A stretch of 64,000 bases of DNA from Promethearchaeia archaeon (GCA_029856045.1 JAHQWG010000016.1:288001-352000), one strand, 5' to 3'; shown: positions 3,997 through 17,618, counted from the stretch's first letter. Notes: generated by a model from the letters alone, not told the origin. Made by a program: numbers and translations.

Positions 3997-4497
3997 TTTA
4001 TAATTCTTCCTCCAAAAACATAATATTATTTCCTAAACAAATCATAATCTTAAAAAACGACAATTTAAGAAAAATTAAATTTAAATGATATTTCGTTCAT
4101 TTTAATGTTAAAAATATTTACTATGATATTTACTATGTAATATATCACATGTATGAATTTATATTTTAATATTCTTATTTACAAAAAAAAATGAAATCTT
4201 ATACACAACTCGTGTCTCTTTATATTAAATTTTAATTTTAATATAACCAAAGATAAAAATATTCCTTTAATTTGATTTAATTAAATTTTTTCTTTTCTAC
4301 ACCCTTCTTAATTTTTAATTCTTTTTGGATATTTTTCAAAATGAAAGTATTTTAAAGTAGTGATAAAATTACTAAAACTAAAATATTTGATTTATTAAAA
4401 ATCATAAAATTGAAAATAATAAAATTATTATTTAGAACTGATAAGATTTTATTGATAACTTTATTTTTTAAATGGAATAAAATGGTTTTTTATAAAA

Positions 4498-12841: not shown

Positions 12842-13972
12842 TTGACACGAGCAGAATTATTTAGAACTAAAGGTGAATCTTATTTTATTCGTGGGATTCC
12901 TAAGGGATGTAAATATTGTATAAAAGGACAAAAGGTCGTTCTATTCCTTAATGGAATTTGTCAGAAACCTGATCATTGTTCTTGGTATTGTCCTATCTCA
13001 GAAGAAAGAAAAAATAAAGAAATAACATACGCTGATGAAATTCAGGTTAAAGATTCTAAAGATTTATTAAAAGAAATTAATCTTGTAAAAGCCAAAGGTG
13101 TTTCAATAACTGGTGGAGAACCTCTTGCCCCTAATAATATAAATCAGACCCTGGATTACATAATTTTTTTAAAAAAAGAAATGGGATCTGATTTTCATAT
13201 ACATCTATATACCAATGGAATTAATTTTAATGAGCAATTAGCGCAAAAATTATCATTGGTAGGATTAGATGAGATAAGATTTCATCCTTCTAAGGAGAAT
13301 TGGATTAATATTAAATATGCGTTATATAAAGGTATGTCTGTGGGTGCAGAAGTTCCGGTAATTCCTGATAAAAAGAATTTGAAAACTCTAAAAGAATTTA
13401 TCTATTTTGTAGATAATCTTAATTGTGATTTTATCAATTTAAATGAATTTGAAATGTGTTTTCCAAATAGTGAATCTCTTAAATCTAAAGGATTTTTATT
13501 GAAAGAAGGAACAATGGCATCTGTTAAAAAAAGCGAAGAATCAGCTCTCAAACTAATTGAAAATGTAGCAAAAAAAACAAAGTTAAATCTTCACTATTGC
13601 CCTATTATTTTAAAGGATCATTATCAATTAAAAAATCGATATAAACGGAGAGCAAGAAGTATTAAGGCACCCTATGAAGTAGTTAATAATGCAGGTCTTC
13701 TTATTTATGCACAAATTGAAGGTACAGCAGTATCTCTAAGGGAGTTTAGCGATAATGTCATATCAAAATTAAACTTACCTGAAAGTCTCTTTTCTTTTAA
13801 AGAATCAAAAATTAATTTACCATGGTATATTCCAATTCACCAAAAATTTGTTGGAGAATTAAAAAAATACGAATTAGAGTGCTACATTATTGAAGGAACA
13901 CCATTTCGCGACAAATATTTTCAAATAACTGAGAAAACACCAATAAGCTTAATTAATATTATTAAAGAATGA
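12842..13972 (+). CDS. Radical SAM protein (conserved archaeal family)
   Basis: PKGCKYC..GQKVVLF, CQKPDHCSWYCP, SITGGEPL, HIHLYTNG, GLDEIRFHP, NLNEFE. Confidence 0.88.
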   Translation: MTRAELFRTKGESYFIRGIPKGCKYCIKGQKVVLFLNGICQKPDHCSWYCPISEERKNKEITYADEIQVKDSKDLLKEINLVKAKGVSITGGEPLAPNNINQTLDYIIFLKKEMGSDFHIHLYTNGINFNEQLAQKLSLVGLDEIRFHPSKENWINIKYALYKGMSVGAEVPVIPDKKNLKTLKEFIYFVDNLNCDFINLNEFEMCFPNSESLKSKGFLLKEGTMASVKKSEESALKLIENVAKKTKLNLHYCPIILKDHYQLKNRYKRRARSIKAPYEVVNNAGLLIYAQIEGTAVSLREFSDNVISKLNLPESLFSFKESKINLPWYIPIHQKFVGELKKYELECYIIEGTPFRDKYFQITEKTPISLINIIKE

Positions 13973-14454
13973 TATATTTATTAGTAAAGTTGCTCTTGAA
14001 ATTGACATTATCGATGATTATAAAAGATGTTACAAATAAAGATATAGAGGAGATCTCTTATTTAGAAGAAAAAATATTTGGAATAGATGCATTTTCTACG
14101 GATCTTCTAAAAAAATTACTAAATAATAAATTATTGTTCATAAAATTAGTTAATGAAACTGAAAAAATCCTTGGATTTTCTATTTCTATTGAGGGTTCTA
14201 AAAATCAAGCAAATATAATTAATTTTTTAATAATAGAAGAGTATCAACATCAAGGATTAGGCTCCTTTCTATTAAAAAGGACATTAAAAGAAATAAAAAA
14301 TAAAAATAAATTTAAATCAATTATTCTAAATGTAAAAATTGACAATGATGTCGCAATTCATTTATATGAAAAGTATGGTTTTAAAGTAATCAAAATAATT
14401 GATAACTATTATGAATCTGGAGCCTCATCAAATTTGATGAAACTTAAGTTGTAG
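13969..14454 (+). CDS. rimI: GNAT N-acetyltransferase (RimI/Ard1-like); the start may be the ATG at 14014
   Basis: YQHQGLGSFLL, LNVKIDNDVAIHLYEKYGF, NYYESG. Confidence 0.8.
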   Translation: MIYLLVKLLLKLTLSMIIKDVTNKDIEEISYLEEKIFGIDAFSTDLLKKLLNNKLLFIKLVNETEKILGFSISIEGSKNQANIINFLIIEEYQHQGLGSFLLKRTLKEIKNKNKFKSIILNVKIDNDVAIHLYEKYGFKVIKIIDNYYESGASSNLMKLKL

Positions 14455-14539
14455 TTGGTTTAAAAATATCTAGATAATTATAAATATACCGATTTTGTAT
14501 TATCATAATATATAAAGTATAGATATAGGGATAAGGAAA

Positions 14540-14692
14540 ATGCCACAACTTGATGATGAGTTAAAGAAAGCTATTAAAGAGGGTAAAACATTAAGCCCTG
14601 TCGACCAAACAGAAGTAGACAGGATAAAAGCCGAACGCGAAAAAAGAAAGCAAGAACTGGAAAAAGTCAAAGAGTCTTTAGAAAAGAAATAA
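14540..14692 (+). CDS. Small 50-aa protein with an N-terminal WH2/actobindin-like motif (not in the ORF track)
   Basis: MPQLDDELKKAIKEGKTLSPVDQTEVDRIKAEREKRKQELEKVKESLEKK*; purine-rich AGGGATAAGGA before the ATG, TATATAAA at ~14509, T-rich tract after the stop. Confidence 0.75.
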   Translation: MPQLDDELKKAIKEGKTLSPVDQTEVDRIKAEREKRKQELEKVKESLEKK

Positions 14693-14788
14693 TCTTATTT
14701 TAATTATTTTTTTCCTCACTTTTTTTTTAAAATATTCATTATATTCCTAGATGAATAAATTTAACCTTTAGGAGCTTGATAAATTCTT

Positions 14789-16997: not shown

Positions 16998-17618
16998 ATG
17001 ACGATATTGACACCCGAGGATGAGATAGATTTAGCAAAATTTGAAGTGGAACTCGTAAAGAATTGGAATAAAATGATTGGCTCTCAAAAGAGTGTTACAG
17101 CAGCTCATATGAGATTATCTAACCTTATTATCAAAGAAAATTCTGCACGAGAAATTTTTTTAAGAACTGCTAGAGATGTGTATAAACAAATGAAAGTACT
17201 AGCAAGAGAAAAAATGTCTAATATCGATGAGGATGATGAGAAAATAATTCAAAAAATAATTCATGATAATGAACAAATATTTGAAAATAATAAAAAATTT
17301 CTTAACGCTATAAAAGATCTAGGATTACAAAGAGAATATTTACATAAAGAATTTCAAGAATTAACTGAAGCATTAAAGGAGGTATCTTCAAAAAGAAAAG
17401 CGGTTGTTAATAAAGCTTTAAAAATCGAAATATCTAAGAATAAATTAATTGAAGGAGAGAAACTTGAAATGATGGATCAAGAATTTAAAGATATACAAAA
17501 GGAGTTTGACAGATCTAAAGGACGTTTTTTGAAAAAAGTTGAACATATCGAATCAACGAGGAATGAAGTTAATTCTTTATGGAATAAACTAAAAGATTCT
17601 ATTATGGGATTTGACTGA
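16998..17618 (+). CDS. All-helical coiled-coil protein, BAR-domain-like
   Basis: 206 aa with three long amphipathic helices and almost no Pro; strong SD (AAGGGGA). Confidence 0.6.
   Translation: MTILTPEDEIDLAKFEVELVKNWNKMIGSQKSVTAAHMRLSNLIIKENSAREIFLRTARDVYKQMKVLAREKMSNIDEDDEKIIQKIIHDNEQIFENNKKFLNAIKDLGLQREYLHKEFQELTEALKEVSSKRKAVVNKALKIEISKNKLIEGEKLEMMDQEFKDIQKEFDRSKGRFLKKVEHIESTRNEVNSLWNKLKDSIMGFD

What the first reader, a model, noticed from the sequence alone, without database searches (positions are those of the whole stretch)
14540..14692. Unannotated 50-aa WH2/actobindin/thymosin-like peptide
Seen: a small ORF with its own TATA-like box, purine-rich leader and T-tract, encoding DELKKAIKEGKTLSPV followed by a charged helix. 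Known: WH2 motifs are an amphipathic helix (e.g. 'dALLaaIrqG') followed by an LKKV/LKKT motif. From memory, amoebal actobindin begins similarly (ELQSAIGQGAALKH). Inference: a stand-alone G-actin-sequestering peptide in an Asgard archaeon, too short for standard gene calling. LSPV departs from LKKV.
Basis: partly seen in the sequence, partly recalled or inferred. Interest (0 to 1): 0.8.

Follow-up and report, generated by a model that had tools for sequence, protein, structure and literature searches.

The report
Lokiarchaeal WH2/thymosin-like actin microprotein candidate
This 50-codon frame is a real, expressed and strongly conserved small gene of Loki-type Asgard archaea. It resembles the short actin-gripping peptides of eukaryotes (WH2, beta-thymosin). 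Relatives of it are fused to profilin, and a ten-copy relative comes down with archaeal actin, so it is a good but unproven candidate for a third class of archaeal actin regulator.

Summary
The ORF at 14540-14692 (+) is real. It has a TATA-like box, a purine-rich leader and oligo-T tracts. Orthologues were found in 63 of 68 genomes of its family and 7 of 7 of the sister family, with dN/dS 0.08-0.23.

The protein is one copy of a ~45-residue module: a short amphipathic helix, an extended G-x-x-L-x-K-[V/I/P]-D stretch and a long charged helix. The same module occurs ten times in tandem in ~490-aa proteins. It also occurs once to four times behind an Asgard profilin domain, and at the C-terminus of coiled-coil, Ras-GTPase/RHH and LRR proteins.

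Its first half resembles WH2:
- Both archaeal profiles put N-WASP's tandem WH2 first in the PDB.
- A profile search of 1.84 billion proteins retrieved two Pfam-verified WH2 proteins.
- 5 of 44 family representatives hit Pfam WH2, best E 3.6e-5.

The window's own protein (LSPV, no basic residue) does not hit Pfam WH2, and single-copy matches are not significant.

In published L. ossiferum data that I re-read, the ten-repeat relative co-precipitates with Lokiactin (log2 4.53). The stand-alone orthologue is detected by peptides but is not significantly enriched (log2 0.57).

This scan has flagged the same family before on other genomes.

The parts
14540..14692 (+). Small protein-coding gene, 50 codons plus TAA (protein P0001)
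   Evidence: ORF and translation. Orthologues across two families. dN/dS 0.08-0.23. Peptides of the L. ossiferum orthologue in published proteomes.
14549..14605 (+). WH2-like half, residues 4-22 (LDDELKKAIKEGKTLSPVD): short amphipathic helix, Gly, then an extended L-S-P-V-D stretch
   Evidence: AF2 model has helix 6-13 and non-helical 14-22. G15 and L18 are invariant and I12 nearly so. This part aligns to N-WASP, P0072 and P0086 WH2 motifs.
14606..14686 (+). Long charged C-terminal helix, residues 23-49, the most conserved part of the module (E32, K35, R36, E39, L40)
   Evidence: AF2 helix 23-49 with pLDDT 88-95. Conservation.
14508..14518 (+). TATA-like box (AATATATAAAG), about 27 nt before the ATG; a second A/T-rich box lies at 14480-14489
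   Evidence: Read directly. Conserved in the four closest genomes. Function as a promoter is inferred, not shown.
14528..14539 (+). Purine-rich leader (GGGATAAGGAAA), Shine-Dalgarno-like
   Evidence: Most orthologues carry AAGGTG at the same place, also before GTG/TTG starts.
14707..14728 (+). Two oligo-T tracts (14707-14713 and 14720-14728), a likely archaeal terminator
   Evidence: T-tracts follow the stop codon in most orthologues.

Best explanation
The gene encodes a one-module member of a family restricted, as far as sampled, to the window's order of Loki-type Asgard archaea. Its ~45-residue unit has the architecture of a WH2/beta-thymosin peptide. The proposed mechanism is inferred, not shown. 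[quoted passage not shown] The extended G-x-x-L-x-x-V-D stretch runs up the face of the monomer. The long charged helix either reaches towards the pointed face, as in thymosin beta-4, or contacts a neighbouring subunit. The free 50-aa protein would then buffer or escort actin monomers, probably with modest affinity. The ten-module and profilin-fused relatives would line up several actins, as nucleators, side-binders or deliverers. What is shown: the gene is real and translated in a relative, the module is shared by these architectures, it resembles WH2, and the ten-module relative associates with Lokiactin. Everything about the contact itself is inference.
For: 1. Real gene. It shows conservation, conserved synteny, SD-like sites and purifying selection. 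The L. ossiferum orthologue (tag GNAMCCOK_02436, 8.24 kDa) has 5 peptides and 43.5% coverage, and is seen in 16/16 proteomes at mean log2 18.4, above profilin Pro2 at 17.4.
2. Architecture. AF2 gives helix 6-13, extended 14-22 and helix 23-49, with pLDDT 84.9.
3. WH2 likeness. The PDB profile search with the stand-alone alignment puts N-WASP tandem WH2 (3m3n_W) first, E 1.2e-4, and also lists 2vcp_D. The repeat-only profile again puts it first (E 0.24), with Spire DDD also listed. A profile search of 1.84e9 proteins returns P0072 and P0086 (E 1.4e-5 and 2.4e-4) beside the family itself, one unrelated repeat protein (P0064) and hits not inspected; both are matched on profile positions 1/4-21 only. 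Pfam confirms WH2 in both, at 86.6 and 64.4 bits. Five of 44 family representatives hit Pfam WH2, best E 3.6e-5, the best E of any Pfam family for any member. Six of the 11 best sub-threshold WH2 hits in 41 genomes fall in this family.
4. Modular use like WH2. The ~490-aa proteins carry about ten repeats each (7-10 located per orthologue). Profilin fusions carry 1-4 modules (P0028, P0080, P0065, L103, L104). Their N-domains match Asgard profilin structures 5zza, 5yed, 5zzb and 7pbh at E 2e-9 to 7e-5.
5. Experiment by others. In the Lokiactin co-IP of L. ossiferum, GNAMCCOK_04085 (56.41 kDa, 44 peptides) has log2(Actin/IgG) 4.53 and adj. p 0.002, above actin itself at 4.44. I map it to the ten-repeat gene of G317 by position and by calculated mass of 56.45 kDa.
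6. Target surface. The Lokiactin of this genome keeps the LYASGRTTG and GGSILASL stretches that, from my knowledge of actin, line the target cleft.
Against: - The window's own protein has LSPV, with no basic residue, and K in place of the second Leu of the WH2 'LL'. It gives no Pfam WH2 or thymosin hit.
- No family member in 41 genomes exceeds the 23.1-bit WH2 cut-off in six-frame scans, and control genomes give hits of the same strength.
- The best single-copy match to a canonical WH2 is 20.4 bits, i-E 41 at library scale. Significance comes only from summing repeated, mutually related copies.
- The most conserved residues (E32, K35, R36, E39, L40) lie in the C-terminal helix, which WH2 lacks.
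- The stand-alone orthologue is not significantly enriched with Lokiactin (log2 0.57, adj. p 0.105).
- The module is also fused to RHH, Ras-GTPase and LRR domains, which also fits a general adaptor.
- The co-IP of the ten-repeat protein may be indirect or antibody cross-reaction. My tag mapping is inferred from position and mass, not from an accession.
Confidence: 0.55

Rival explanations
1. The unit is a general protein-protein adaptor or oligomerisation element: a helix-loop-helix with a single charged helix. It binds some other Lokiarchaeal hub, or itself. On this reading the WH2 likeness is chance or convergent resemblance of a short amphipathic helix plus L-x-K-V.
For: The best conserved residues are in the charged helix, not the WH2-like half. 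The module is fused to unrelated domains: RHH, Ras-family GTPase plus RHH, LRR and coiled coil. G15, L18 and D22-x-x-E25 can be read as helix C-cap, hydrophobic staple and N-cap box of a plain hairpin (inference). WH2 scores are at noise level genome-wide. The stand-alone orthologue is not significantly enriched with actin.
Against: There are recurrent fusions to profilin with 1-4 copies. The ten-copy protein co-precipitates strongly with Lokiactin. The N-terminal half is strongly conserved (PQLDDELKxxIKKG) in the stand-alone form. AF2 finds no confident compact fold for the tandem protein (pTM 0.16), and the L-x-x-I-D stretches are its least confident parts. Unbiased searches keep landing on WH2 rather than on any other motif.
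Confidence: 0.27
2. The module does bind actin, but filaments rather than monomers. Each unit would decorate one subunit along a strand, as nebulin or tropomyosin do, so the 50-aa protein is a weak side-binder or stabiliser, not a sequesterer.
For: In the tandem protein the predicted helices are about 37 residues long, roughly 55 Å (my arithmetic). They are separated by 8-9-residue loops at the L-x-x-I-D motif. That length is close to the subunit spacing along one actin strand (my knowledge). The ten-copy form, not the single one, comes down with actin.
Against: The AF2 model of the tandem protein is of low confidence (pLDDT 57.8, 6 sequences). Fusion to profilin, a monomer binder, and the WH2-like helix point to monomers. 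Avidity alone explains why ten copies survive washes better than one.
Confidence: 0.12
3. It is a translation- or ribosome-linked small protein, suggested by its fixed place between a RimI-like N-acetyltransferase and pelota.
For: The order radical-SAM / GNAT / small gene / pelota / radical-SAM is kept, whole or in part, in all 19 loci examined, including one from another family. GNAT was found in 16 and pelota in 17 of the 19, some of which are truncated at a contig end. The neighbours are RimI-like (79 bits) and pelota (248 bits).
Against: The gene has its own promoter-like and terminator-like signals and 85-100-nt gaps on both sides. In G317 the GNAT is kept but pelota is not adjacent, and in G032 and G029 neither is within the fetched loci. 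No ribosomal or translation family matched. Nothing explains the profilin fusions or the actin co-IP.
Confidence: 0.04
4. It is a chance open frame in an A+T-rich spacer.
For: It is short and lysine/glutamate-rich, as random frames in A+T-rich DNA tend to be.
Against: Conservation across two families with saturated synonymous sites and dN/dS 0.08-0.23. A conserved start position and SD. Peptide evidence in a relative.
Confidence: 0.01

Closest known systems
WH2 (WASP-homology 2) motif, Pfam PF02205: N-WASP, WAVE, WIP, MIM, Spire, Cordon-bleu
   Same: It has a short amphipathic helix, a Gly, and then L-K-K-V five residues on. The family consensus deLlkEIkegvqLkkID matches LLDQIREGAQLKKV and LLKEIRNGVQLKKVD. 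It is used singly, in tandem arrays and at the C-terminus of larger proteins. It is predicted to be flexible in the tandem form.
   Different: It always carries a conserved 25-28-residue charged helix directly after the motif. The basic pair is often replaced (LSPV here; LQKV, LEKPD elsewhere). Most members fall below Pfam's threshold. It was found essentially in one archaeal order only, so common descent with eukaryotic WH2 is not shown.
Beta-thymosins and thymosin repeats (thymosin beta-4, ciboulot, actobindin; Pfam PF01290)
   Same: It is a stand-alone peptide of about 45-50 residues built as helix, extended LKKT-like stretch, second helix. Tandem-repeat relatives exist. One orthologue even begins MSDKP.
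   Different: No Pfam thymosin hit was listed for any member. The second helix starts at once and is much longer and more conserved. The sequestering function is untested.
WH2-like LKKT-type linker of Asgard two-domain gelsolins (LVDV/LKDV in Loki, LRRV in Thor)
   Same: It is the only WH2-like element so far described in Asgard archaea. In crystal structures it lies on actin, and in Loki it lacks basic residues, like LSPV here (PMC9433394; bioRxiv 10.1101/2025.11.30.690169).
   Different: That element is a four-residue linker inside a gelsolin, without the N-terminal helix. Here the unit is autonomous and includes the helix.
Arcadin-2 of Pyrobaculum, a crenactin depolymeriser
   Same: It is an archaeal precedent for a short helical peptide that binds the hydrophobic groove of an archaeal actin and acts like thymosin beta-4 (PMC5173319).
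   Different: It has an unrelated sequence and the opposite orientation in the groove. It is the C-terminus of a larger protein, and the lineage and actin are different.
Profilin with a WH2-like insertion in Leishmania/Trypanosoma
   Same: It is a precedent for profilin and a WH2-like element in one polypeptide that both touch actin (PMC10907219).
   Different: There it is a ~20-residue insertion within the profilin fold. Here 1-4 whole modules follow the profilin domain.

Membership tests
WH2 motif (Pfam PF02205) | Score above Pfam's gathering cut-off (23.1 bits) | tested here: not met
   The window's protein has no WH2 hit at E<=10, and none in the six-frame scan of its genome. In the family, 1/19 members (E 0.025) and 5/44 members (best E 3.6e-5) hit WH2. 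By my extrapolation from other hits the best is about 24 bits, near the cut-off, but the bit score was not shown. Tandem proteins score 11.9-13.3 bits.
WH2 motif (Pfam PF02205) | N-terminal amphipathic helix of about three turns with hydrophobic residues at i, i+4 (LLxxI) | tested here: met
   AF2 gives helix 6-13. L4, L8 and I12 are conserved. Tandem repeats have the full L-[LIM]-x-E-I. The window protein has K at the second Leu position.
WH2 motif (Pfam PF02205) | L-[KR]-[KR]-[VT] (LKKV/LKKT) 4-7 residues after the helix | tested here: not met
   The window protein reads LSPV at the right spacing (I12-x5-L18) but has no basic residue. Many relatives read LKKV, LQKV or LEKV.
WH2 motif (Pfam PF02205) | [quoted passage not shown] | not testable with these tools
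No other route was tried.
Beta-thymosin (Pfam PF01290) | Match to the thymosin family profile | tested here: not met
   No PF01290 hit was listed for the window protein or for family members at E<=10.
Beta-thymosin (Pfam PF01290) | Stand-alone ~45-aa peptide: helix, extended LKKT-like segment, second helix | tested here: met
   50 aa, with AF2 helix 6-13, extended 14-22 and helix 23-49. This is a resemblance of architecture only.
Lokiarchaeal ~45-aa module family (defined here, alignments A1, A5, A6) | Invariant L18 and R36, with near-invariant G15, E32, K35, E39 and L40, in a unit shared by stand-alone, tandem and fused forms | tested here: met
   The window protein is the first row of A1, A5 and A6. 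An HMM of stand-alone proteins finds each repeat of the tandem proteins, best i-E 2.5e-11. There are 65 members at E<=1e-3 among 1.84e9 proteins.
Protein-coding gene | Purifying selection, translation signals and peptide evidence | tested here: met
   dN/dS is 0.08-0.23. There is an SD-like site and a conserved start. The orthologue in L. ossiferum has 5 peptides and 43.5% coverage; that mapping is by position and mass.

The most novel reading that the evidence does not exclude
The WH2/beta-thymosin way of gripping actin already existed in Asgard archaea as an autonomous, shuffled module: free, ten-fold tandem, and fused to profilin and to small GTPases. On this reading Lokiarchaeales have a third class of actin regulators beside profilins and gelsolins, including multi-WH2 proteins able to nucleate or template filaments. 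In the strongest form, the eukaryotic WH2 motif descends from, or was exchanged with, this archaeal module.
Probability: 0.25. Interest if true: 0.9.

Novelty: new variant of a known kind. Interest (0 to 1): 0.75.

Why it matters
Current accounts say that Asgard archaea regulate their actin mainly with profilins and gelsolins (bioRxiv 10.1101/2025.11.30.690169). In the papers I could search, the only WH2-like element described in Asgard archaea is a four-residue linker inside gelsolins.

An autonomous WH2/thymosin-like module would add monomer buffering, and possibly nucleation, to the pre-eukaryotic toolkit. It is abundant in the proteome, fused to profilin, and present ten-fold in a protein that comes down with Lokiactin.

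It would also explain one of the strongest unexplained hits in a published Lokiactin pull-down. And it gives a very cheap experiment: a 50-residue synthetic peptide against actin.

If the resemblance is only convergent, it is still a clear case of the actin barbed-face cleft being targeted twice by the same kind of peptide.

Tried and rejected
The job was counted. This says nothing about binding, and I did not try another route.
- A Foldseek search of the AF2 model against the PDB gave no match, as expected for a 50-residue helix-loop-helix.
- Pfam and NCBIfam scans of the window protein gave only weak coiled-coil-type hits (HIP1_clath_bdg, DUF3006). I treat these as composition matches to the charged helix.
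- Designed TIM-barrel, PPR and streptococcal M-protein hits in the PDB searches were judged to be repeat or coiled-coil noise. The aEF-1beta match (12.6 bits) was judged chance.
- The word-index search for longer and near-length relatives found only tandem forms and no named protein.
- I considered that the ~200-aa 'long profilins' carry the module. They do not. Their C-terminal domain is different, although it begins with a similar DPQLKSEI helix.
- I considered the 253-aa coiled-coil protein as a profilin fusion. It has no profilin likeness.
- P0064, a secreted repeat protein retrieved by the profile, looks unrelated.
- Whether P0086 (two WH2 plus an acidic tail) is archaeal could not be settled. 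It lies on a 1.1-kb metagenome contig.

Full report
**The observation**

It runs from ATG to TAA over 50 codons. The protein starts MPQLDDELKKAIKEGKTLSPVD and ends in a lysine/glutamate-rich stretch.

Upstream lie a TATA-like AATATATAAAG (14508-14518) and a purine-rich GGGATAAGGAAA that abuts the ATG. Downstream lie two oligo-T tracts, at 14707-14713 and 14720-14728.

The window is contig 27, bases 288001-352000, of a 3.34-Mb genome. Close homologues of the protein are labelled Candidatus Lokiarchaeota or Promethearchaeota in NCBI, where they are called 'hypothetical protein'. The gene is therefore uncharacterised, but not invisible to gene callers.

**It is a real gene**

- A single-protein search found an orthologous small frame in all 24 sampled genomes of the family and in most of the order.
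- A profile of 19 orthologues found it in 63 of 68 genomes of the family and 7 of 7 of the sister family. In the other 226 genomes of the phylum sampled it gave only three weak matches. With this query the family is thus restricted to one order.
- The start position is fixed even where the start codon is GTG or TTG. Most orthologues have AAGGTG 7-13 nt upstream and T-tracts after the stop.
- Synonymous sites are saturated between genera while the protein stays 50-60% identical. Where dS can be estimated, dN/dS is 0.08-0.23.
- The gene sits in a conserved slot: radical-SAM, RimI-like GNAT, small gene, pelota, radical-SAM. The order is kept, whole or in part, in all 19 loci examined; GNAT was found in 16 and pelota in 17, and some loci are cut at contig ends. 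In more distant genomes pelota is no longer adjacent.

**What the protein looks like**

AlphaFold2 on the 19-sequence alignment gives a short helix (6-13), a non-helical stretch (14-22) and a long helix (23-49), with mean pLDDT 84.9.

Across 44 representatives that are under 50% identical to each other, L18, R36 and E39 are invariant. G15, E32, K33, K35 and L40 are nearly so. The consensus reads DDELKxxIxxGxxLxKVDxxExKxREEEKKKRxEELxKxKExL.

Many members read ELKxAIKxGAxLKKVD, a textbook WH2 core. The window's genus is a departing variant (IKEGKTLSPVD).

**The unit is a module**

An HMM of the stand-alone proteins finds about ten consecutive copies, with a period of ~46 residues, in ~480-490-aa proteins. 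I located 7-10 copies per orthologue. The best single repeat has i-E 2.5e-11. Eight genomes of the sister family carry such a protein.

The repeat heads read L-[LIM]-x-E-I-x5-L-x-x-[IV]-D, for example LLKEIKEGSQLHKID and LLEEISQAPQLKKVD.

AF2 gives the tandem protein no confident compact fold (pLDDT 57.8, pTM 0.16). It predicts ~37-residue helices separated by 8-9-residue low-confidence loops, exactly at the L-x-x-I-D stretches. That alignment has only six sequences.

The same unit also ends several other kinds of protein:
- A 253-aa coiled-coil protein of the window's own genome.
- A Ras-family GTPase with a ribbon-helix-helix domain, again in the own genome.
- An LRR protein and small RHH proteins.

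**Fusion to profilin**

P0028 (251 aa, genome G020) has an N-terminal domain that matches solved Asgard profilins: 5zza_P at E 2e-9, then 5yed, 5zzb and 7pbh. It also matches Pfam Profilin weakly. This domain is followed by one module that resembles that genome's own small protein.

Orthologues occur in two more genomes of the genus. The representative library holds forms with two modules (P0080, 302 aa) and four modules (P0065, 387 aa). P0065 lies on a 40-kb contig with a dense prokaryote-type gene arrangement.

A monomer-binding actin regulator fused one to four times to this unit is the strongest contextual argument for an actin role.

**How good is the WH2 likeness?**

Points for it:
- The stand-alone profile ranks the N-WASP tandem-WH2 construct first among 177,635 PDB sequences (E 1.2e-4) and also lists 2vcp_D.
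- A profile made only of the repeat heads of the tandem proteins again ranks it first (E 0.24) and lists Spire DDD.
- A profile of 44 archaeal modules, run against 1.84 billion proteins, returned 65 hits at E<=1e-3. Those I inspected were family members, one unrelated repeat protein (P0064), and two WH2 proteins: P0072 (E 1.4e-5) and P0086 (E 2.4e-4). Both matched only on profile positions 1/4-21.
- Pfam finds six and two WH2 motifs in those two proteins, at 86.6 and 64.4 bits.
- Five of 44 family representatives hit Pfam WH2. The best E of 3.6e-5 is the lowest E of any Pfam family for any member.
- Six of the 11 best sub-threshold WH2 hits in six-frame scans of 41 genomes fall in this family.

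Points against it:
- The window's own protein gives no WH2 hit at all.
- No hit in those 41 genomes passes the 23.1-bit cut-off, and control bacteria give hits of equal strength.
- The best single-copy match of the archaeal profile to a canonical WH2 is 20.4 bits, i-E 41 at library scale. The significant E-values come from summing repeated copies that are related to each other.

I conclude that the resemblance is real and specific. Sequence statistics alone cannot separate homology from convergence, and the window's protein fails a strict membership test.

**Experimental evidence from the literature**

Earlier notes of this scan, on other genomes, claimed that a ten-repeat relative comes down with archaeal actin. 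I checked this myself.

The preprint 10.1101/2025.11.30.690169 reports proteomes and a Lokiactin-antibody co-IP of Lokiarchaeum ossiferum. [quoted passage not shown]

Genome G317 is 6.0 Mb in one contig, in the genus that holds one of the tandem proteins. I take it to be that organism.

Three anchors fix the relation between position and the paper's locus tags:
- 2DGel2, tag 02589, at 3.040 Mb.
- Lokiactin, tag 03343, at 3.925 Mb.
- 2DGel1, tag 04136, at 4.784 Mb.

The ten-repeat gene at 4.727 Mb is then predicted to be tag 4083-4085, with a calculated mass of 56.45 kDa. The co-IP sheet lists GNAMCCOK_04085 at 56.41 kDa. It has 44 peptides, 70.5% coverage, log2(Actin/IgG) 4.53 and adjusted p 0.0021. 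That is above Lokiactin itself (4.44) and 2DGel1 (3.97). The passages I read do not discuss this protein.

The stand-alone orthologue at 2.869 Mb is predicted near tag 2437. From the upstream GTG it would weigh 8.24 kDa. The sheet lists GNAMCCOK_02436 at 8.24 kDa, with 5 peptides, 43.5% coverage, log2 ratio 0.57 and adjusted p 0.105. It is present in all 16 whole proteomes, at mean log2 18.4. Profilin Pro2 is at 17.4 and actin at 21.7.

So the small protein is made, and fairly abundantly. Its ten-fold relative associates with actin. The single module is not significantly enriched. That last point fits a low-affinity monomer binder lost in washes, but it equally fits no binding.

The mapping rests on position and mass, not on an accession. 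A co-IP cannot tell direct from indirect association, nor exclude antibody cross-reaction.

**Mechanism**

My best reading, at about 0.55, is that the module is an actin-binding peptide of the WH2/beta-thymosin type:
- The N-terminal helix sits in the cleft between subdomains 1 and 3. The Lokiactin of this genome keeps the LYASGRTTG and GGSILASL stretches that, from my knowledge of actin, line that cleft.
- The extended L-x-x-V stretch lies on the monomer's face.
- The charged helix reaches further along the monomer or to a neighbouring subunit.

Loki gelsolin already shows that a Loki WH2-like stretch can lack basic residues: LVDV, with calcium taking their place (PMC9433394). LSPV is therefore not disqualifying.

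The main rival, at about 0.27, is a general adaptor or oligomerising helix-loop-helix whose WH2 likeness is superficial. The conserved C-terminal helix and the fusions to RHH, GTPase and LRR domains speak for it.

A filament-side-binding variant of the actin idea gets about 0.12. A translation-linked role suggested by synteny gets about 0.04.

**Novelty**

In the searchable literature, the only WH2-like element described for Asgard archaea is the four-residue gelsolin linker. The nearest archaeal precedent for a cleft-binding peptide is arcadin-2 of Crenarchaea.

The family is therefore undescribed in print as far as I can see, although this scan has flagged it several times on other genomes.

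Its restriction to one order argues against simple vertical descent of the eukaryotic WH2 from it. Homology remains the less likely, but most interesting, reading.

Noticed in passing
own genome outside the window: G000:C15:167395-168153 (-) = L024:1996-2754: A 253-aa coiled-coil protein whose C-terminus is one copy of the same module (VVAELKEALNKGNPLKPIDPQELKEIKEEREKR), preceded by a mildly proline-rich stretch. It was found only in the window's genus, plus a metagenome relative P0091.
   Followed up: partly
own genome outside the window: G000:C23:33226-34281 (-) = L102:927-1982: A Ras-family small GTPase (Pfam Ras 112.8 bits) fused to a ribbon-helix-helix domain and two module-like segments, one of which reads LLKKIDEEELK. 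Similar proteins occur in G002 and G213. The GTPase-RHH combination is unusual.
   Followed up: partly
own genome outside the window: G000:C27:235728-236303 (+) = L084:1501-2103: 'Long' profilins of ~201-207 aa are present in most genomes of the family. They carry a conserved C-terminal domain that begins IDPQLKSEIxAFLDWIK, reminiscent of the small protein's MPQLDDELK start. By position, the L. ossiferum counterpart maps close to B35_Pro1 (tag 02671).
   Followed up: partly
L. ossiferum co-IP table (bioRxiv 10.1101/2025.11.30.690169, Supp. Table 2): Several proteins rank above Lokiactin in the Lokiactin pull-down and are not named in the passages I read. They are GNAMCCOK_00333 (37.5 kDa, log2 9.2), GNAMCCOK_02751 (67 kDa, 7.7) and GNAMCCOK_04250 (20.6 kDa, 91.7% coverage, 5.1). 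I did not identify them.
   Followed up: no
L112:100-693 (JGI metagenome 3300036719, 1.1-kb contig), protein P0086: A 197-aa protein with two canonical WH2 motifs, polyproline and an acidic tail ending SDWD, an architecture like a WASP-family VCA region. Its organism of origin is unknown because the contig is so short.
   Followed up: partly
window 13969-14454 (+): The RimI-like N-acetyltransferase upstream (TIGR01575, 79 bits, just under its cut-off) stays next to the small gene even in G317, where pelota is no longer adjacent. Whether it acetylates the small protein or actin is pure speculation.
   Followed up: partly
window 16998-17618 (+): A 206-aa charged, probably coiled-coil protein with no Pfam family, two genes downstream of pelota.
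   Followed up: no
L105:355-1410 (G291:C113): A leucine-rich-repeat protein (Pfam LRR_14, 130 bits) ending in one copy of the module (SELKKAIPSHKNGSYLEKPDEEEIK). The frame runs to the contig end.
   Followed up: no
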